Below, piece after piece: positions 3,796 through 19,371 of a stretch of DNA of 32,000 nucleotides. The stretch comes from Haloferax volcanii DS2. GTDB taxonomy: Archaea > Halobacteriota > Halobacteria > Halobacteriales > Haloferacaceae. The notes beneath the pieces are model-generated. The model was not told the origin of the DNA and made no database searches. It worked only from the letters and a program-made list of their open reading frames with translations. The position numbers and the translations under genes are program-made. The stretch is from positions 240,001 to 272,000 of the forward strand of contig NC_013967.1 in the NCBI RefSeq assembly GCF_000025685.1, read 5' to 3'. Numbering within the stretch: position 1 is the stretch's first letter; each line of letters starts with the position of its first letter.

Positions 3796-5242
3796 CCATC
3801 CGTTCTAGTTTAACGAAGAATCCAGTTGCTGTCTGTTGATTTGATATCGTCGCAACTACCTGATTGAGAAACCCGGTGGGAAGTATGACCTACAGCCCAC
3901 CGGATTCGGTCATAGTTGACCGGATTCAAAGAGCGTTTCCCTCTGATGAGTTGCGCGAGCGCGCTCGCGCAACGAATCTCGTCCAACGAGAGCGGAAATT
4001 CGACATCGTTGCGCTGTTCTACACACTCTCGTTTGGCTTCGCTGCTGGCTCAGACCGCTCTCTCCAAGCATTTCTCGAACGCTACGTCGAGATGGCTGAC
4101 TGTGACGAACTCTCCTACGCATCGTTCCACGACTGGTTCGAACCAGGATTCGTTGCACTCCTTCGAGAGATTCTCGATGACGCAATCGAGAATCTCGATA
4201 CCGGACGAGAAGATTTGAACGGCCGTCTCGAACGCTTTCGAGACGTCCTCATTGCTGACGCAACCATCGTTTCGCTGTACCAGGACGCCGCTGATATCTA
4301 CACAGCAACCGGCGACCATCAAGCCGAACTGAAACTTCACCTCACCGAATCTCTCTCGACTGGGCTCCCGACACGATTCCGGACAACCGATGGGACGACT
4401 CATGAACGGAGTCAGCTACCCACCGGTGAGTGGGTAGCTGACGCCCTCATCTTGCTCGATTTAGGCTTCTACGACTTCTGGTTGTTCGACCGAATCGACC
4501 AGAACGGCGGGTGGTTCGTCTCCCGGGTGAAGGACAACGCGAACTTCGAGATCGTCGAAGAACTGCGAACGTGGCGAGGCAACAGCATTCCGCTGGAAGG
4601 AGAGTCGCTGCAGGCCGTCCTTGAGGACCTGCAGCGACAGGAAATCGACGTACGCATCACGCTTTCATTCGAGCGCAAACGAGGGTCGGGCGCCAGCGCG
4701 ACCCGGACGTTCCGACTGGTCGGCCTGCGCAACGAGGAGACCGACGAGTACCATCTGTATCTGACGAATCTGGCGAGAGAGGACTACAGCGCGCCCGATA
4801 TCGCGCAGCTCTATCGGGCGCGCTGGGAGGTCGAACTGCTGTTCAAGGAGCTGAAGTCGCGGTTCGGCTTGGACGAGATCAAGACGACCGACGGCTACAT
4901 CATCGAGGCGCTGATCATCATGGCCGCAATTTCGTTGATGATGAGTCGTGTAATCGTGGATGAGTTACGGTCGCTCGAGGCAAGACAGCGAGAGGGCGAA
5001 GCCGCCGCAGACGCCGACTCGTCGGCGTCGCGGCTCCCTCGGCGTCGCTGTTCGCTCGCCGTGGAACGCCACGGTCATCTGATCCAGTTGTATCTCATGA
5101 TCGAGTTGGGCTACGAACTGCCGGATTTGGACGAGCTGTTGCTGTGGGCGTCACGAAATCCAAATCCACACAGAGATCGGTTACGTGAGCAGGTTGAACG
5201 AGGTGAGTTCGGCTTTGATCGCTACTAAACTAGAACGCATGG
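3796..5242 (+). mobile_element. IS4-family insertion sequence, copy 1 (1447 bp)
   Basis: The terminal inverted repeats are CCATCCGTTCTAGTTTA (3796-3812) and TAAACTAGAACGCATGG (5226-5242), matching at 16 of 17 positions. There is a single transposase ORF. CGGTGGGT flanks both ends. Confidence 0.85.
3885..5228 (+). CDS. IS4-family DDE transposase
   Basis: YRARWEVELLFKELK matches the IS4 Y-(2)-R-(3)-E-(6)-K signature. The ATG at 3885 is preferred over the TTG at 3864 used in the track. Confidence 0.85.
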   Translation: MTYSPPDSVIVDRIQRAFPSDELRERARATNLVQRERKFDIVALFYTLSFGFAAGSDRSLQAFLERYVEMADCDELSYASFHDWFEPGFVALLREILDDAIENLDTGREDLNGRLERFRDVLIADATIVSLYQDAADIYTATGDHQAELKLHLTESLSTGLPTRFRTTDGTTHERSQLPTGEWVADALILLDLGFYDFWLFDRIDQNGGWFVSRVKDNANFEIVEELRTWRGNSIPLEGESLQAVLEDLQRQEIDVRITLSFERKRGSGASATRTFRLVGLRNEETDEYHLYLTNLAREDYSAPDIAQLYRARWEVELLFKELKSRFGLDEIKTTDGYIIEALIIMAAISLMMSRVIVDELRSLEARQREGEAAADADSSASRLPRRRCSLAVERHGHLIQLYLMIELGYELPDLDELLLWASRNPNPHRDRLREQVERGEFGFDRY

Positions 5243-5250: not shown

Positions 5251-6697
5251 CCATCCGTTCTAGTTTAACGAAGAATCCAGTTGCTGTCTGTTGATTTGAT
5301 ATCGTCGCAACTACCTGATTGAGAAACCCGGTGGGAAGTATGACCTACAGCCCACCGGATTCGGTCATAGTTGACCGGATTCAAAGAGCGTTTCCCTCTG
5401 ATGAGTTGCGCGAGCGCGCTCGCGCAACGAATCTCGTCCAACGAGAGCGGAAATTCGACATCGTTGCGCTGTTCTACACACTCTCGTTTGGCTTCGCTGC
5501 TGGCTCAGACCGCTCTCTCCAAGCATTTCTCGAACGCTACGTCGAGATGGCTGACTGTGACGAACTCTCCTACGCATCGTTCCACGACTGGTTCGAACCA
5601 GGATTCGTTGCACTCCTTCGAGAGATTCTCGATGACGCAATCGAGAATCTCGATACCGGACGAGAAGATTTGAACGGCCGTCTCGAACGCTTTCGAGACG
5701 TCCTCATTGCTGACGCAACCATCGTTTCGCTGTACCAGGACGCCGCTGATATCTACACAGCAACCGGCGACCATCAAGCCGAACTGAAACTTCACCTCAC
5801 CGAATCTCTCTCGACTGGGCTCCCGACACGATTCCGGACAACCGATGGGACGACTCATGAACGGAGTCAGCTACCCACCGGCGAGTGGGTAGCTGACGCC
5901 CTCATTCTCCTTGATTTGGGCTTTTACGACTTCTGGCTGTTCGACCGCATCGACAAGAACGACGGTTGGTTCGTCTCTCGTGTCAAAGACGACGCGAACT
6001 TCGAGATTGTCGAAGAACTGCGAACGTGGCGAGGCAACAGCATTCCGCTGGAAGGAGAGTCGCTGCAGGCCGTCCTCGACGACCTGCAGCGACAGGAGAT
6101 CGACGTCCGCATCACGCTCTCGTTCGAGCGCAAACGAGGGTCGGGCGCCAGCGCGACCCGGACGTTTCGACTGGTCGGACTACGTAACGAGAAGACCGAC
6201 GAGTATCATCTGTATCTGACGAATCTGGCGAGAGAAAGCTACAGCGCGCCCGATATCGCGCAGCTCTATCGGGCGCGCTGGGAGGTCGAACTGCTGTTCA
6301 AGGAGTTGAAGTCGCGGTTCGGCTTGGACGAGATCAAGACGACCGACGGCTACATCATCGAGGCGCTGATCATCATGGCCGCAATTTCGTTGATGATGAG
6401 TCGTGTAATCGTGGATGAGTTGCGGTCACTTGAGGCAAGACAGCGAGAGGGCGAAGCCGCCGCAGACGCCGACTCGTCGGCGTCGCGGCTCCCTCGGCGT
6501 CGCTGTTCGCTCGCCGTGGAACGCCACGGTCATCTGATCCAACTGTATCTCATGGTTGAGCTGGGCTACGAACTGCCGGATTTGGACGAGCTGTTGCTGT
6601 GGGCGTCACGAAATCCAAATCCACACAGAGATCGGTTACGTGAGCAGGTTGAACGAGGTGAGTTCGGCTTTGATCGCTACTAAACTAGAACGCATGG
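5251..6697 (+). mobile_element. IS4-family insertion sequence, copy 2 (1447 bp), in direct tandem with copy 1
   Basis: It has the same IRs (5251-5267 and 6681-6697). The offset from copy 1 is exactly 1455 bp, which is 1447 plus 8. The sequence differs from copy 1 only between the equivalents of 4427 and 5106. Confidence 0.85.
5340..6683 (+). CDS. IS4-family DDE transposase (variant copy)
   Basis: It has the same length and motif as 3885..5228. There are six amino-acid differences, for example QNGGW versus KNDGW and EETDEY versus EKTDEY. Confidence 0.85.
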   Translation: MTYSPPDSVIVDRIQRAFPSDELRERARATNLVQRERKFDIVALFYTLSFGFAAGSDRSLQAFLERYVEMADCDELSYASFHDWFEPGFVALLREILDDAIENLDTGREDLNGRLERFRDVLIADATIVSLYQDAADIYTATGDHQAELKLHLTESLSTGLPTRFRTTDGTTHERSQLPTGEWVADALILLDLGFYDFWLFDRIDKNDGWFVSRVKDDANFEIVEELRTWRGNSIPLEGESLQAVLDDLQRQEIDVRITLSFERKRGSGASATRTFRLVGLRNEKTDEYHLYLTNLARESYSAPDIAQLYRARWEVELLFKELKSRFGLDEIKTTDGYIIEALIIMAAISLMMSRVIVDELRSLEARQREGEAAADADSSASRLPRRRCSLAVERHGHLIQLYLMVELGYELPDLDELLLWASRNPNPHRDRLREQVERGEFGFDRY

Positions 6698-7859: not shown

Positions 7860-7977
7860 TCTTCCTATCCCACTCATCCCCCGGTTCAGTGAAGCTCTCG
7901 TGAACTATTTCACATACGTCAATCATCTTCTCTCCTGAATGGTTATTGACTGGTGCTGACTTGATGGAAATTCTGCT

Positions 7978-8185
7978 ATCCCATCGGAGCGTGAATCAAT
8001 TATGGGACGCAAGAGACCGAGCTGTATTCCGTGCGCTAGAGCACGTGGTGCTGACTGGTCCGAGTGCGAAAGAAGCCGAGTTATGGGCGTCACAGCCCGG
8101 ATGCCGCTCCTGGCGGCATCCGGGAAAGCCCGCATAGGTGAATTTCTGATTCACGCACCGCCGTCCTATCCCGGAGGAACGAACC
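7978..8185 (+). ncRNA. Candidate bridge (guide) RNA region in the 5' non-coding end of the IS110 element
   Basis: Positions 8046-8056 (TGGTGCTGACT) are identical to the left flank at 7951-7961. Positions 8133-8143 (CATAGGTGAAT) are identical to the right junction at 9403-9413. A perfect 12-bp GC-rich hairpin (8096-8107 pairing with 8113-8124) lies between them. The RNA itself is an inference. Confidence 0.35.
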
Positions 8186-9184
8186 ATGTACCTCGGAATC
8201 GACCTACACAAACGATACGCACAGGTGGCAGTAATGGACCTCGAGGGCGAGATTGTCGAAGAGGTTCGCGTCAAAAACGCGAACCTCGACGACCTCGCTC
8301 AGCGATACGCTGGCTCTCGTGCAGTAATCGAGGCGACCAGCAATTACTACCACGTCTACGATACTCTCGCGGAGTACTTGGACGTAACCGTCGCTCATCC
8401 AGGCAAACTGACGCTCATCGCTCGGTCAGACAAGAAAACCGACCGCGTCGACGCGAAAGAACTCGCGCGGCTGCTCCGGCTGAACTCTGTTCCGCAGAGT
8501 TACGTTCCTACCGACGAGATTCGGGAAGCCCGCGCACTCGTGCGCGGGCGACAGACCTTGGTCGAAGATCGGACCAAGTTCGCCAACAAAATCCACGGCT
8601 TGCTCGCCGATAACGGCATCACTCAGACGGTAAAACCGCTGAGTGTCGAGGGACGAGAGTTCCTCCGGGAACTCTCGCTCCCGTCTCCGTGGGACAGTCT
8701 CTTGGACTCGTATCTCGACGTGGTCGAGACGCTAACCGAGCAGATGACTCAGTTGGAAGCGGCGATTGAGGAGCGCGCTGGGTCTCTGAAGGAGACCCAG
8801 CTGCTGATGACCATCCCCGGTGTCAGTTACTACTCCGCGTTGCTGGTCTACGCTGAACTGGGTGAGATCGATCGGTTCGACGGCCACAAAGAGGTCGTGA
8901 GTTACATGGGACTGAACCCGACGATCCGCGAGTCCGGTGACTCGCGGATCGAGGGTGGTATCTCGAAACGCGGCTCAGGACGAGTTCGCTGGATCTTGGT
9001 TCAGAGTGCGTACTCAGCCGTGTACACGTGTAAAGACGCGTATCTAAGCACGTTCTTCCACCGGTTGAATCGTCGAATGAACTCGAAAAAAGCGATCGTC
9101 GCGACGGCACGAAAACTGCTCGTCTCGATGTACTACATGCTCGTCCGAGAGGAAGTCTACGATCCACCGGGGGTGAGCGCCTGA
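8186..9184 (+). CDS. IS110-family transposase (DEDD/RuvC-like N-terminal domain plus Transposase_20-type C-terminal domain)
   Basis: The N-terminus MYLGIDLHKRYAQVAVMD is typical of the family. So is the C-terminal region LMTIPGVSYYSALLVYAELGEIDRFDGHKEVVSYMGLNPTIRESGDS...GISKRGSGRVRW. Confidence 0.9.
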   Translation: MYLGIDLHKRYAQVAVMDLEGEIVEEVRVKNANLDDLAQRYAGSRAVIEATSNYYHVYDTLAEYLDVTVAHPGKLTLIARSDKKTDRVDAKELARLLRLNSVPQSYVPTDEIREARALVRGRQTLVEDRTKFANKIHGLLADNGITQTVKPLSVEGREFLRELSLPSPWDSLLDSYLDVVETLTEQMTQLEAAIEERAGSLKETQLLMTIPGVSYYSALLVYAELGEIDRFDGHKEVVSYMGLNPTIRESGDSRIEGGISKRGSGRVRWILVQSAYSAVYTCKDAYLSTFFHRLNRRMNSKKAIVATARKLLVSMYYMLVREEVYDPPGVSA

Positions 9185-9194
9185 AGAAGGGAAT

Positions 9195-9223
9195 CTGAGG
9201 AACGCCGGACCGGCGTTCCTCAG
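9195..9223. repeat. Near-perfect palindrome/hairpin just after the IS110 transposase stop
   Basis: CTGAGGAACGCCGG (9195-9208) and CCGGCGTTCCTCAG (9210-9223) are exact reverse complements. The role is unknown; possibilities are a 3' end structure or part of the element's non-coding RNA or end. Confidence 0.5.
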
Positions 9224-9748
9224 TGGCCGGATGAGGCCAGCGTAAGCGACAGCTCTAGCAAGACTCGTTCCGACCGCCTACCGGTTGTGGAGGTCTCAAT
9301 CACCACGTTGTCTAGTGGTTTCTCGTCGTTGAGGGACTAGAGAAGCTAGATCGTGCGAACAACTTTATCGCCAGCGGTGGTTAGTTGAGCCAGCAGAATT
9401 TCCATAGGTGAATACACGGCCTGGGTTCAGTACAACTTCGACAACCTATCACCACCTGATGGTTTTCAACAGCCCAAATTTTTCGCGCGGTCCAAGGGAC
9501 CGGCGCGTCCGCGGTTCTGCGTGCGTAGCTGTGCGGTGTATTTTGGTCAGGTGGCGTTAGCCACACATGCTAAGCGACGCGCGGCCACCCCCCGGCCGCC
9601 GAGTCTCGGCGAAGGCTATGAAGTCGAGAAGCAACGAGTGAATCTTTCGAAGGAATGTGTCTCGAAAGCAGTTGTCGACAACTGATTCCGGACTCAAAAG
9701 GCCGAAAATAAGATTCGTTGGTAGTGATGCCTCTCGCTGGACCACGCG

Positions 9749-11479
9749 CTACGTGTCGTCGCGGTCCTCCGTGGGCTGTGGAAGGCCCGCTTTCCACGCT
9801 TCCCAATCCACGCTCTCGACCTTCTCCCGAACCGAGCGTACGTCGAGATTGGTGATGTTGCCCGTGGTGAGCTGAAGGTCGGAAAGGATCGTCGTGTGCT
9901 CACCTCCGAGGTGGTCATGGTAGGTTACGGTCACTCGGCGTAGCGATGTCCACCGGTCGCGGGCTGCACGCTTGATGTCGCGGAGCATGTCGGTTCGGTT
10001 CTCCCAGTCAGTCGGCCGATACTCGACATGAATCTCGTCGCGTCGGCAGTCATGCTCGACGACGCGAGCGGCGTACCGATTCTTTATCTCGGACCACTCC
10101 GACCGACGACGGCCCGCAGCCGCGTCAGCGGCGGTCATCACGGCGTCTTCCATCGCGGTCTCGAAGTTCTCCGCAGCGGCGCGGACGCGAGAGAGAAGCA
10201 TGTTTTGCATGTGCTTACTCCCGATTTCGAGTTTCCCCGCGGCGTCGGCCACGATGCCTTCGCACCTGTTGACGTACCGCCGAACGGTGCGGTAGCTCCA
10301 CCCGGTTCGCTCGGCGAGTTCTTCGCGCGTCGGCGTGCCGCCGTCTTCGATGAGACTGCGAGTGAAATCCCTGTCAGATGTCTTCATGTCGCCCCAGATT
10401 CGCATCACGACGTGTTCCTGCTCGTCCTCGATTTCTGGCAGCGGACAGTCAACGAGACGGCGAGAGCGGCGCGTCTCGCTCTCCGCGTCGAAGTGTACGT
10501 CTGACTCAAACACCTCGTCGTCGGCGCGAGTGGTCAGTCCTGCCCAACTGAGGTAGTTCAGTAGCGTCTCGTCGAGTTCACGCAGCGCGTCGTCGAGGTC
10601 GGACCAGTAGACCGTCTCGTCGGTGATGCTGGTCTGAAGTGAGACTTCGACTTTCGGATTGTAGAGCGGGTGGTCCTCGTCGAACTGCTCGGGATTCAGC
10701 GGGTAGTAGTGTTTGGCCTCCTTCCCGAGTCGGTGGCCCCTGATAATGTCGCCAGCGCGTTCGTCGGTGATGTGTGTCGAGACGTAGTAGCCGGGGATTT
10801 TCCGGTGGTCCTCCTTGTGCATCCGGTAGCCCGACATACCGCTGGTCATCACCGAGTGAGTTCGGGCGATTGGTCCATCCGGGGCGTAGATAGCTCCCGA
10901 GTGTTCACGCGAGAGGCGGACGTAGACGGCGAGGTCCTGAACGTTGCTCATCTCGTGTGGCGTCTGGAAGTATCGACGACTCACACCGAAGGCTTCCATC
11001 GCGGTCTGAACGAGGTCGTGGTAGAGGTGGTGGTCGATGTTCGACGCCTGAATCTGCACGTCTAGGTAGGGGCCTCCAAGATTCGGGATTCCTCGGACGG
11101 GCTTCCCGTCCTTGGTCATGTCCGGCCACCGAGGGCGAATCGTCATCGTGCCGCCCGTCGTCCGGGCAGACTGGTCGGCGGGCTCGTCGTCGTAGAGCGA
11201 ATCATCCGCGACGAAGTAGATACGGAACAACGGGACCGTCTGAAGCTGGTAGTCCTCGTGGTCGCGAGGGTCGATGGGTTGCACGTCATAGTCGTAGGCG
11301 AGGTGCCACGTCTGGTTCCGCCAACTGACCTTTCGAGTAGGCTTCCCGGTGGTCTGCCAGCCGTCGTAATCCTTCCTGACGCTATCGAGCGCGAAGTACG
11401 GCTTCAGTCCGTACTCGTCAAAAATCAGATGAACGTCGCCCTCGTGCGGCTGCGGGTCGATGAACGGGGCGGCCGTCAT
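9749..11479 (-). CDS. Large provirus protein with a C-terminal-half HTH, putative replication/DNA-binding protein (betapleolipovirus-type by recollection)
   Basis: It is a 576-aa acidic ORF starting at the ATG at 11479. The track's GTG at 11524 would overlap the upstream mini-ORF. The HTH-like segment is TREELAERTGWSYRTVRRYVNRCEG. It is the last gene of a coupled - strand operon. Confidence 0.75.
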   Translation of the reverse strand: MTAAPFIDPQPHEGDVHLIFDEYGLKPYFALDSVRKDYDGWQTTGKPTRKVSWRNQTWHLAYDYDVQPIDPRDHEDYQLQTVPLFRIYFVADDSLYDDEPADQSARTTGGTMTIRPRWPDMTKDGKPVRGIPNLGGPYLDVQIQASNIDHHLYHDLVQTAMEAFGVSRRYFQTPHEMSNVQDLAVYVRLSREHSGAIYAPDGPIARTHSVMTSGMSGYRMHKEDHRKIPGYYVSTHITDERAGDIIRGHRLGKEAKHYYPLNPEQFDEDHPLYNPKVEVSLQTSITDETVYWSDLDDALRELDETLLNYLSWAGLTTRADDEVFESDVHFDAESETRRSRRLVDCPLPEIEDEQEHVVMRIWGDMKTSDRDFTRSLIEDGGTPTREELAERTGWSYRTVRRYVNRCEGIVADAAGKLEIGSKHMQNMLLSRVRAAAENFETAMEDAVMTAADAAAGRRRSEWSEIKNRYAARVVEHDCRRDEIHVEYRPTDWENRTDMLRDIKRAARDRWTSLRRVTVTYHDHLGGEHTTILSDLQLTTGNITNLDVRSVREKVESVDWEAWKAGLPQPTEDRDDT

Positions 11480-11510
11480 CGGTGGCCTCCAGCGACGTGA
11501 GCGGGTTCGG

Positions 11511-11606
11511 TCACCGCTGGTCACCTCTCACGAGGTCGTGGCCGCAGTAGTCACAGCGGAACAGCGTCTTCGATTCGTGACCGCAGGCAGGACATTCGAC
11601 AGTCAC
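11511..11606 (-). CDS. 31-aa zinc-ribbon mini-protein (CPxCG type)
   Basis: The manual translation is VTVECPACGHESKTLFRCDYCGHDLVRGDQR. It has two Cys pairs. The GTG start overlaps the upstream stop as GTGA, and GGAGGTGA lies 7 nt upstream of the GTG start. It is below the track's size cutoff. Confidence 0.45.
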   Translation of the reverse strand: MTVECPACGHESKTLFRCDYCGHDLVRGDQR

Positions 11607-12025: not shown

Positions 12026-12098
12026 TGGGACCGCCCGGATTTGAACCGGGGTCACGGGCACCCAAGGCCCGAAGTATACCAGGCTAACCCACGGTCCC
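12026..12098 (-). tRNA. tRNA-Pro (anticodon UGG)
   Basis: The reverse complement folds as a cloverleaf. The acceptor stem is GGGACCG/CGGTCCC, the anticodon stem is CGGGC/GCCCG with loop CTTGGGT, and the T arm is CCCGG-TTCAAAT-CCGGG. The discriminator is A and CCA is not encoded. Confidence 0.85.
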
Positions 12099-19297: not shown

Positions 19298-19371
19298 GTC
19301 CAGGTGCGAGAATTGAACCCGCGTCTCAGCCTCCACAAGGCTGAAGGATAGTCCACTACCCCAACCCGGAC
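19298..19371 (-). tRNA. tRNA-His (anticodon GUG) with encoded G-1
   Basis: The reverse complement gives an 8-bp acceptor stem including G-1:C73. The anticodon stem is CAGCC/GGCTG with loop TTGTGGA. The T arm is GCGGG-TTCAATT-CTCGC. Confidence 0.85.

What the first reader, a model, noticed from the sequence alone, without database searches (positions are those of the whole stretch)
7951..9413. IS110-family element whose 5' non-coding end carries exact copies of both insertion flanks: candidate archaeal bridge RNA
Seen directly in the sequence:
- A perfect 14-bp terminal inverted repeat (7964-7977 and 9392-9405) brackets an IS110-type transposase.
- AT is present at both junctions (CTTG-AT-GGAAA and TTTCC-AT-AGGTG).
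- Inside the left non-coding end, TGGTGCTGACT (8046-8056) is identical to the 11 nt of left flank at 7951-7961.
- CATAGGTGAAT (8133-8143) is identical to the right junction at 9403-9413, which is 3 nt of element plus 8 nt of flank.
- A perfect 12-bp hairpin (8096-8124) lies between the two segments.
- GAATTTC (8140-8146) repeats the right-end sequence at 9396-9402.

IS110 elements are known to encode a bridge RNA. Its internal loops pair with the target flanks and with the donor ends. Flank-matching segments on either side of a capping hairpin are what a target-binding loop would look like.

One caveat: in the characterised IS621 system, as I recall it, the two target guides pair with opposite DNA strands. 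Here both matches are in the same sense. However, GTGAAT/ATTCAC at 8139-8155 also supplies the reverse-complement sense. The exact architecture is therefore unresolved.
Basis: partly seen in the sequence, partly recalled or inferred. Interest (0 to 1): 0.7.

Follow-up and report, generated by a model that had tools for sequence, protein, structure and literature searches.

The report
ISHvo9 insertion sequence with bridge RNA
This is ISHvo9, a catalogued Haloferax volcanii jumping gene whose upstream non-coding end very probably encodes a guide ("bridge") RNA that pairs with both the insertion site and the element's own ends; a published survey had already predicted that RNA there, so the finding is real but not new.

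Summary
The sequence observations are all correct, and the two 11-nt repeats are far beyond chance.

- **Identity.** The 332-aa transposase is identical to ISHvo9 of Haloferax volcanii. Durrant et al. 2024 list it as "ISHvo9 | LE | IS1111".
- **Boundaries.** Three empty-site alleles show that the 14-bp inverted repeat is subterminal. The element carries 7 bp (TG+ACTTG) beyond the left repeat and 3 bp (AGG) beyond the right. The duplicated core is TG, not AT. The element spans 7957-9408 (1452 bp).
- **Target loop.** The left end encodes two guide loops in IS1111 order. The right target guide (RTG) is 8023-8029, followed by a hairpin. The left target guide (LTG) is 8046-8053.
- **Donor loop.** The right donor guide (RDG) is 8077-8083, followed by a stem-loop that includes the 12-bp hairpin. 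The left donor guide (LDG) is 8134-8140.
They are the left guides of two different loops, each extended 3 nt across its junction.
- **Support.** Guide-to-DNA covariation across about 70 haloarchaeal copies gave 0/10000 shuffles reaching the observed match. RDG changes are compensatory in distant relatives. The fold has 13 pairs with compensatory changes.
- **Missing.** There is no transcript or biochemical evidence.

The parts
7951..7956 (+). Left target flank (LT, TGGTGC), host DNA
   Evidence: Same sense as the left target guide (LTG) at 8046-8051. Flank-guide identity is 0.85 against 0.455 in shuffles across loci. It continues directly into TG+AATACA in the empty-site homologue L081.
7957..7958 (+). 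Core dinucleotide TG, left copy
   Evidence: TG lies at both junctions in 66/68 left and 55/58 right junctions. Empty sites hold a single TG.
7959..7963 (+). Left terminal extension of the element (RD1-5, ACTTG; ACTCG in most relatives)
   Evidence: Absent from empty-site alleles. With the core it makes the 7-bp left extension typical of the IS1111 group (PMC11187229). Paired by the right donor guide (RDG).
7964..7977 (+). Left subterminal inverted repeat (sTIR)
   Evidence: Perfect 14-bp inverted repeat with 9392-9405. The two arms covary across the family: ATT/AAT, ACG/CGT, ATC/GAT.
7985..7998 (+). P1 closing stem, 5' strand (pairs with 8147-8160)
   Evidence: Compensatory changes at 5 of its pairs.
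8015..8019 (+). P2, basal stem of the target-binding loop, 5' strand (pairs with 8056-8060)
   Evidence: 100% paired in 35 sequences, with one compensatory pair.
8023..8029 (+). Right target guide (RTG, UGUAUUC), complementary to the top strand G+AATACA at 9410-9416
   Evidence: Antiparallel covariation between right flank +7..+11 and 8027..8023, with 71-93% complementarity. Identity is 0.76 against 0.42 in shuffles, 0/10000. Found at the same position in distant relatives.
8030..8045 (+). P3 hairpin between RTG and LTG
   Evidence: Three of its 5 pairs show compensatory changes.
8046..8053 (+). Left target guide (LTG, UGGUGC+UG), same sense as LT plus core, so it pairs with the bottom strand
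8054..8056 (+). 3-nt extension of the LTG (ACU), equal to RD1-3 of the element's own left end
   Evidence: It changes to AUU exactly in the three elements whose RD is ATTCG.
8077..8083 (+). Right donor guide (RDG, CGAGUUA; CGAGUCA in most), complementary to the top strand of TG+ACTTG at 7957-7963
   Evidence: An unbiased scan picks this site with 7/7 pairs in WIN, L023, L037, L092 and L093. RD and RDG change together: ACTCG/CGAGUCA, ATTCG/CGAAUUA, AAGCT/AGCUUCG, ATGCG/CGCAUCA.
8084..8132 (+). P4 (8084-8088/8128-8132) and P5 (8096-8107/8113-8124), the stem-loop capping the donor-binding guides
   Evidence: 99.8-100% paired. P5 has 4 compensatory pairs.
8134..8140 (+). Left donor guide (LDG, AUAGG+UG), same sense as the right end 9404-9408 plus core
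   Evidence: Invariant across the family and in distant relatives, matching an invariant LD. There is no variation to test covariation.
8141..8143 (+). 3-nt extension of the LDG (AAU), equal to RT1-3 of the right flank
   Evidence: Position 8141 equals the first flank base in 97% of loci. All 5 loci with a non-A base there match.
8147..8160 (+). P1 closing stem, 3' strand
8186..9184 (+). ISHvo9 transposase gene (DEDD/RuvC-like plus Tnp domains)
   Evidence: Pfam hits. Exact match to H. volcanii ISHvo9 proteins. Distant homology to the IS621 and ISCro4 structures.
9195..9223 (+). Perfect 14-bp hairpin just after the stop codon
   Evidence: Weak sub-threshold Rfam hit only. Function not tested.
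9363..9385 (+). Conserved AT-rich box and GTGGTTWG motif about 40 nt from the right end, a candidate outward-facing promoter
   Evidence: Conserved in position across 47 right ends. The promoter role is inference only.
9392..9405 (+). Right subterminal inverted repeat
9406..9408 (+). Right terminal extension (LD, AGG)
   Evidence: Absent from empty sites. Matches the 3-bp right extension of the IS1111 rule.
9409..9410 (+). Core dinucleotide TG, right copy
9411..9416 (+). Right target flank (RT, AATACA), host DNA

Best explanation
The element is ISHvo9, an ISH18-type member of the IS110 family with IS1111-type ends. It spans 7957-9408 and lies between two copies of a TG core. Its left non-coding end (about 7985-8160, + strand) encodes a bridge RNA of about 176 nt.

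A closing stem (P1) encloses two guide modules. Each has the layout right guide, stem-loop, left guide.

**Target module**
- The left target guide (LTG, 8046-8053) has the same sequence as left flank TGGTGC plus TG, so it pairs with the bottom strand.

**Donor module**
- The left donor guide (LDG, 8134-8140) has the same sequence as the element's right tip ATAGG plus TG, so it pairs with the bottom strand.

Holding target and circularised donor together in this way, the DEDD/serine recombinase would exchange strands at TG.

Each left guide runs 3 nt further, and those bases match the recombined junction: ACU equals the element's left tip, and AAU equals the right flank.

**Shown here:** the boundaries and core, guide-DNA covariation, and the conserved fold.

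**Inferred:** transcription, binding to the transposase, the circular intermediate, and the role of the 3-nt extensions.
For: **Identity.** The protein is identical to H. volcanii ISHvo9. The Durrant 2024 supplement row reads 'ISHvo9 | LE | IS1111'.

**Boundaries.**
- The uninterrupted 20-mer TGYTGACTCGATAGGTGAAT, which an AT core with repeat-bounded ends would predict, is absent from viral contigs. The metagenome scan gave a single hit, in AT-rich sequence unlike haloarchaeal DNA, which I take to be chance.
- Three empty-site alleles read LT-TG-RT without gaps: L026/L088, L028/L089 and L037/L090.
- The window's own reconstructed empty site aligns across the junction to a Haladaptatus plasmid.

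**Guides.**
- The covariation is diagonal.
- Shuffle tests gave 0/10000 for both target guides.
- RD and RDG change together in five sequence classes, all at one conserved position.

**Fold.** Of 40 pairs, 94.3% are paired, and 13 show changes on both sides. Slid controls give 23-39% paired. G-U pairs fix the + strand as the RNA strand.

**Fit to the family.** The architecture matches published IS1111 rules: a subterminal repeat, 7/3-bp extensions, and the top-strand complement lying 5' of the bottom-strand match. Donor guides sit in a multi-loop.
Against: - No transcript, transcription start site or protein-binding data were available. Rfam has no model that hits the region.
- LD and LDG are invariant, so that pairing rests on identity alone.
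- The RDG is short. Its core is CGAG(U), and only about half the copies pair through the TG core.
- Two distant relatives, L091 and L094, pair at only 6 of 7 RDG positions.
- In the window copy the RDG needs two G·U/T wobbles.
- No promoter for the integrated copy was identified.
- The loci are related, so the number of independent events is smaller than the number of loci.
Confidence: 0.85

Rival explanations
1. The element is bounded by the 14-bp inverted repeat with an AT core. Segments 8046-8056 and 8133-8143 are the two target guides of a single loop capped by the 12-bp hairpin.
For: Both 11-mers exactly match the sequence outside the repeat, and AT abuts both arms.
Against: - Empty sites lack TGACTCG...AT and AT...AGG.
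- The predicted empty 20-mer does not occur in the collections scanned.
- All copies in a genome carry the same 'flank' variant, for example TTG in three Halobellus copies.
- A separate top-strand guide at 8023-8029 covaries with the right flank.
- The hairpin sits between the RDG and the LDG.
Confidence: 0.03
2. A seekRNA-like model. Only a short RNA carrying the target module (about 8015-8060) is functional. The element's ends are recognised by the transposase through the subterminal repeats. The donor-guide matches would then be by-products.
For: The abundant RNAs of IS1111 elements are 70-100 nt and are described by their target matches. The long perfect repeats could be protein-binding sites. 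LD and LDG show no covariation.
Against: - RD and RDG change together in several lineages at a fixed position next to a conserved stem-loop.
- P1 encloses both modules and shows compensatory changes.
- The LDG extension tracks the first flank base.
Confidence: 0.09
3. No guide RNA at all. The internal copies of junction sequence are DNA-level relics, such as captured target DNA or remnants of nested insertion, and targeting is by protein alone.
For: No expression data. Two 11-mers alone could be a relic.
Against: - The segments sit at fixed positions in about 70 copies from many genera.
- They change in step with the DNA they match, one of them in antisense register.
- They are embedded in a fold with compensatory base changes.
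Confidence: 0.02

Closest known systems
ISHvo9 / ISHvo10 / ISH18 (ISfinder; Haloferax volcanii, Halobacterium)
   Same: The transposase is identical in sequence to ISHvo9. Durrant et al. 2024 list ISHvo9 with the bridge RNA in the left end and place it in the IS1111 group. Siddiquee et al. note that ISHvo10 has long non-coding regions on both sides.
   Different: Nothing differs; this is that element. I found no published map of its guides, core or exact ends in the papers searched.
IS1111-group elements with seekRNA/bridge RNA (ISEc11, ISKpn4, ISPa11)
   Same: - Near-perfect subterminal inverted repeats.
- 7-bp left and 3-bp right extensions.
- The top-strand complement lies 5' of the bottom-strand match.
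- Donor-binding bases sit in a multi-loop.
   Different: - The RNA is encoded upstream of the transposase gene, not downstream.
- The host is archaeal.
- The transposase is only about 20-27% identical to the other ISfinder transposases shown in the part of Siddiquee et al.'s identity matrix that was retrieved; the table is truncated there.
IS621 bridge RNA (IS110 group, E. coli)
   Same: - Two loops, each with a left guide pairing the bottom strand and a right guide pairing the top strand.
- The core is included in the guides.
- The RNA lies in the left end and is of similar size (about 176 nt here against 177 nt).
- The recombinase is a DEDD plus Ser enzyme.
   Different: - The order of guides within each loop is reversed.
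- The core is TG, not CT.
- The repeats are 14 bp, not 2-3 bp.
- The extra 'handshake-like' bases follow the left guides and match the bottom strand of the product, whereas in IS621 they follow the right guides and pair with top strands.

Membership tests
IS110 family (DEDD transposase) | Transposase with DEDD_Tnp_IS110 (RuvC-like) and Transposase_20 domains | tested here: met
   PF01548 at 1.8e-18 and PF02371 at 2.2e-20, both above their cut-offs. Sequence homology to the solved IS621 and ISCro4 transposases, E 1e-8 to 1e-9.
IS110 family (DEDD transposase) | Conserved catalytic acidic residues and serine | tested here: inconclusive
   D6, E49, D86, D89, S250 and S253 are invariant in 21 homologues. 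The ESGDS motif aligns with ISCro4 ESGSS. Residue-by-residue equivalence to IS621 D11/E60/D102/D105/S241 was not established.
IS1111 group | Subterminal inverted repeats of about 11-13 bp, perfect or nearly so | tested here: met
   14/14 bp at 7964-7977 and 9392-9405. They are subterminal according to the empty sites.
IS1111 group | Asymmetric terminal extensions beyond the repeats, 7 bp on the left and 3 bp on the right | tested here: met
   TGACTTG (7957-7963) and AGG (9406-9408), fixed by three empty-site alleles and the window's own homologue. The rule is as stated in PMC11187229.
IS1111 group | Guide RNA encoded in the long non-coding region downstream of tnp | tested here: not met
   All four guides lie upstream, at 8023-8143. 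A 224-nt downstream non-coding region (9185-9408) exists, but no guide was found in it. Both papers record this clade as an exception.
IS1111 group | Top-strand complement lies 5' of the bottom-strand match in the RNA | tested here: met
   RTG 8023-8029 precedes LTG 8046-8053, and RDG 8077-8083 precedes LDG 8134-8140.
Bridge RNA (IS110/IS1111) | Guides covary with target flanks on opposite strands and overlap the core | tested here: met
   0/10000 shuffles for each target guide. The wrong-sense controls give 0.23-0.29 identity.
Bridge RNA (IS110/IS1111) | A second pair of guides matches the element's own ends (the donor) | tested here: met
   RD and RDG are compensatory in five classes. LDG equals LD plus core but is invariant, so that half rests on identity only.
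Bridge RNA (IS110/IS1111) | Conserved secondary structure that presents the guides as unpaired strands | tested here: met
   40 pairs, 94.3% paired, 13 compensatory, well separated from the slid controls.
Bridge RNA (IS110/IS1111) | The RNA is transcribed, binds the recombinase and is required for recombination | not testable with these tools
   No RNA-seq or biochemistry was available. The only expression data found concern the transposase mRNA.
ISHvo9 (ISfinder entry) | Sequence identity to the named element | tested here: met
   Exact protein look-up returns the H. volcanii ISHvo9 accessions ADE01718, ADE01882, ADE02497 and ADE03701. IS-only contigs from H. volcanii assemblies match window 7953-9414 exactly, apart from one ambiguous base (N) in L087.

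The most novel reading that the evidence does not exclude
The 3-nt extensions of the two bottom-strand guides may be functional. ACU after the LTG equals the element's left tip, and AAU after the LDG equals the right flank. They would be a mirror image of the IS621 handshake guides, pairing with the bottom strands of the recombined junctions. If so, in this IS1111-type archaeal clade the bottom strand would be the one 'introduced' between loops. That could mean a different order of strand exchange or a different control of directionality from IS621. It would be testable in the genetically tractable H. volcanii.
Probability: 0.3. Interest if true: 0.5.

Novelty: already known. Interest (0 to 1): 0.3.

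Why it matters
**Main value: correction and annotation.** The analysis fixes the true ends, core and four guides of ISHvo9. It also shows that exact copies of both flanks inside an IS110 or IS1111 end can be junction-spanning guides from two different loops. A scanner should not read them as one target loop.

**Practical use.** No archaeal bridge RNA has been tested experimentally in the literature I could search. ISHvo9 sits in a model archaeon with good genetics. The map given here specifies which bases to reprogram, which circle junction to look for by PCR, and which target (GGTGC-TG-AATACA) to supply.

**Limit.** It adds no new principle.

Tried and rejected
- **AT core with repeat-bounded ends.** I adopted this at first. 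I dropped it when the predicted empty 20-mer was missing from the plasmid, viral and metagenome collections and real empty sites read LT-TG-RT.
- **The conserved 'flanks' as a dispersed repeat or another transposon's end.** An all-against-all comparison of 400-nt flanks shows mostly unrelated contexts. Only one sub-clade sits in IS5-family termini.
- **GAATTTC (8140-8146) as a donor guide.** It is not conserved and does not track repeat variants.
- **ATTCAC (8150-8155) as the antisense target guide.** It belongs to the P1 stem, which has compensatory support.
- **RNAalifold's GGGACG/CGUCCC and GUGCG/CGCAC helices**. They conflict with P1 and show no compensatory change.
- **Right-end segment 9301-9315 complementary to 8036-8050** (13/15). 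It does not follow the guide in L031, and a match of this kind is expected by chance in 2 kb.
- **Rfam.** No family matched at the gathering or the E-value threshold.
- **Other copies in the same genome with their flanks.** Only IS-only contigs were returned.
- **Other window copies or unoccupied targets.** None found.
- **Left-end-only BLAST hits as solo RNA genes.** Those inspected are truncated remnants.
Full report
**Observation**

- The 14-bp inverted repeat at 7964-7977 / 9392-9405 is perfect.
- TGGTGCTGACT occurs at 7951 and 8046.
- CATAGGTGAAT occurs at 8133 and 9403.
- The 12-bp hairpin lies at 8096-8124.
- AT abuts both repeat arms.
- ORF 8186-9184 carries both IS110-family domains.

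Each 11-mer occurs exactly twice in the 32-kb window. Shuffles predict 0.01 and 0.00 occurrences.

**What the element is**

The 332-aa protein is found, residue for residue, as the [quoted passage not shown] of Haloferax volcanii, under four accessions. IS-only contigs from H. volcanii assemblies match window 7953-9414 exactly, apart from one ambiguous base (N) in L087.

Two published surveys already mention this clade.
- Supplementary Table 5 of Durrant et al. 2024 (PMC11208160) holds the row "ISHvo9 | LE | IS1111 | ISHvo10;ISHvo9", with this same protein sequence. Given the table's title and the text on Fig. 6, I read this as a bridge RNA predicted in the left end and an IS1111 group assignment.
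- Siddiquee et al. 2024 (PMC11187229) single out ISHvo10 as a diverged IS with long non-coding regions on both sides.

More than 1,600 homologues exist. Every named source organism among the 120 best hits listed is a haloarchaeon, and NCBI already names some of them "IS110 family RNA-guided transposase".

**Boundaries**

I fetched 80 related loci and aligned 69 left ends. Homology starts exactly at the repeat. Even so, 10-13 nt outside it on the left (..TGYTGACTCG) and 8-11 nt on the right (AGGTGAAT..) are also conserved, and beyond that the flanks are unrelated.

If those bases were target DNA with an AT core, the uninterrupted site TGYTGACTCGATAGGTGAAT should exist somewhere. It does not.
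- It is absent from plasmids.
- It is absent from viral contigs.
- The metagenome collection gave one hit, in AT-rich sequence unlike haloarchaeal DNA, which I take to be chance.

The seekRNA paper states that IS1111 elements carry 7 bp beyond the left subterminal repeat and 3 bp beyond the right. I rebuilt empty sites on that rule, joining left flank, TG and right flank. This gave gapless matches to uninterrupted DNA in other genomes:
- L026 against a Natribaculum longum plasmid (GTCTGC-TG-AATAGAAGG);
- L028 against intact IS5-family termini in many plasmids (CTGCCGTGT-TG-AATAGCT);
- L037 against a Haloarcula plasmid (CCCCTGTAC-TG-cCCACT).

The AT-core reconstruction scored lower in all three. 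For the window itself, the TG-core reconstruction aligns across the junction to a Haladaptatus plasmid (TATTG...GGTGCTGAA...). The AT-core version aligned only from the right flank onwards.

The element therefore runs from 7957 to 9408 (1452 bp). The core is TG, with copies at 7957-7958 and 9409-9410. The 14-bp repeat is subterminal.

**Guides**

A column-by-position mutual-information scan gave clean diagonals.
- Left positions -12..-8 are identical to 8047-8051.
- Right positions +7..+11 are complementary, in antiparallel register, to 8027-8023.
- Position +6 is identical to 8141.

In the corrected frame the four guides are:

| Guide | Coordinates | Sequence | Pairs with |
|---|---|---|---|
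| LTG (left target) | 8046-8053 | UGGUGC+UG | bottom strand of left flank + core |
| RTG (right target) | 8023-8029 | UGUAUUC | top strand of core-G + AATACA |
| RDG (right donor) | 8077-8083 | CGAGUUA | top strand of TG + ACTTG (7957-7963) |
| LDG (left donor) | 8134-8140 | AUAGG+UG | bottom strand of right end 9404-9408 + core |

Shuffling flanks among distinct flank-guide pairs never reached the observed identity. The values were 0.85 against 0.455 and 0.76 against 0.42, with 0/10000 shuffles for each. Wrong-sense controls gave 0.23-0.29.

For the donor, an unbiased scan picks 8077-8083 as the best partner of the top strand of TG+ACTTG. The site lies immediately 5' of a conserved stem. The same position wins in relatives whose left tip differs, and the guide changes with the tip:

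| Left tip (RD) | Donor guide (RDG) |
|---|---|
| ACTCG | CGAGUCA |
| ATTCG | CGAAUUA |
| AAGCT | AGCUUCG |
| ATGCG | CGCAUCA |

The LDG (AUAGG+UG) is invariant, as is the right tip it matches, so that pairing rests on identity alone.

Each left guide continues for 3 nt that match the recombined junction.
- ACU (8054-8056) equals the element's left tip. It becomes AUU exactly where the tip is ATTCG.
- AAU (8141-8143) equals the right flank. Its first base tracks the flank in all five loci where that base is not A.

They are copies of the left and right junctions, and they belong to two different loops.

**Fold**

My model comprises these stems:

| Stem | 5' strand | 3' strand | Role |
|---|---|---|---|
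| P1 | 7985-7998 | 8147-8160 | closing stem |
| P2 | 8015-8019 | 8056-8060 | base of the target module |
| P3 | 8030-8034 | 8041-8045 | hairpin between RTG and LTG |
| P4 | 8084-8088 | 8128-8132 | base of the donor stem-loop |
| P5 | 8096-8107 | 8113-8124 | the 12-bp hairpin |

Across 35 diverse sequences the model is 94.3% paired, and 13 pairs change on both sides. Controls with the partner slid by 1-3 columns give 23-39% paired and 2-6 such pairs.

Invariant G-U pairs show that the + strand is the RNA strand. The window sequence alone folds with z = -2.9 and recovers P1 to P5.

Both modules have the order right guide, stem-loop, left guide. The donor guides lie in the multi-loop closed by P1. 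Both features are described for IS1111-type RNAs.

**Mechanism**

The mechanism is inferred by analogy with IS621. The RNA would hold the target (...GGTGC-TG-AATACA...) and the circular donor junction (...CCATAGG-TG-ACTTGATGG...) in one complex, and the recombinase would exchange strands at TG.

A conserved AT-rich box at 9363-9369, about 40 nt from the right end and facing outwards, could act as a promoter reading across the circle junction into the left end. Junction promoters are known in this family. This remains untested here.

**Comparison and novelty**

By its ends and guide order the element fits the IS1111 group. By the position of its RNA, upstream of tnp, it behaves like the IS110 group. 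Both 2024 papers record that exception.

The logic is the same as for IS621, with left guides on the bottom strand, right guides on the top strand, and the core included. Four things differ:
- the order of guides within each loop;
- the core sequence;
- the length of the repeats;
- the placement of the extra junction-matching bases.

The element is catalogued, and a left-end bridge RNA has already been predicted for it, so I rate the finding as already known. The guide-level map and the corrected ends are, as far as I could find, new detail. The mirror-image "handshake" reading is the only part with some novelty, and it is unproven.

**Limits**

- No expression or biochemical data were available.
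- The loci are phylogenetically related.
- LD/LDG cannot be tested by covariation.
- The RDG is short and imperfect in some copies.
- The column meanings of the Durrant table are my reading.

Noticed in passing
window 3864-5228 and 5319-6683 (+): Two adjacent 454-aa ORFs, each with a DDE_Tnp_1 transposase domain (IS4-type). These look like two tandem IS copies just upstream of ISHvo9.
   Followed up: partly
window 9749-11524 (-), 12026-12098 (-), 19298-19370 (-): A DUF7845 plus HTH protein lies right next to the IS, and two tRNA genes lie nearby. The literature places one ISHvo9 copy (HVO_0278) inside the Halfvol1 provirus, so this stretch may be a provirus edge.
   Followed up: no
window 9411-9470; L081 1800-1862; L082 1801-1855: The right flank shares a motif of about 60 nt (TTCAGTACAAC..CTATCACC..TGATGGTTTCAACA) with intergenic DNA on Haladaptatus, Halorussus and Haloprofundus plasmids, upstream of hypothetical genes. 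Its nature is unknown.
   Followed up: partly
window 9195-9223: A perfect 14-bp hairpin with a 1-nt loop lies immediately after the transposase stop codon. It gave only a sub-threshold Rfam hit (STnc420, E 0.008). It may be a terminator-like structure.
   Followed up: no
window 9363-9385: An AT-rich box (CTTTATC) and a GTGGTTAG motif are conserved in position in 47 right ends, about 40 nt from the tip and facing outwards. This is a candidate promoter acting across the circle junction.
   Followed up: partly
L028, L030, L075 right flanks; H56-H75: One sub-clade of relatives is inserted a few bases inside the terminus of IS5-family elements. Many intact copies of that IS5 end exist and serve as empty sites.
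   Followed up: partly
L084 501-644; L085 501-641; L057: Several plasmids carry only the first 140-145 nt of the left end, broken within the P5 hairpin. L057 has an internal deletion from that hairpin into codon 30. P5 may be a recurrent breakpoint.
   Followed up: partly
window 8255-8293 and 8922-8951: Two strong hairpins lie inside the transposase ORF: 17 nt at 88% complementarity and 13 nt perfect. The second overlaps the conserved ESGDS motif. Similar hairpins at comparable positions in the transposase gene recur in distant relatives L091, L092 and L094. The reason is unknown.
   Followed up: no
window 9301-9315 vs 8036-8050: A right-end segment is complementary to the P3/LTG region at 13 of 15 positions. 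It does not follow the guide change in L031, so it is probably chance.
   Followed up: partly
L013 right junction; L064 right junction; L051 and L027 right junctions: A few copies have imperfect junctions. L013 has TTACAG instead of AATACAG. L064 has a CG right core, and L051 and L027 have TA. These may be mutations after insertion or off-target events.
   Followed up: no
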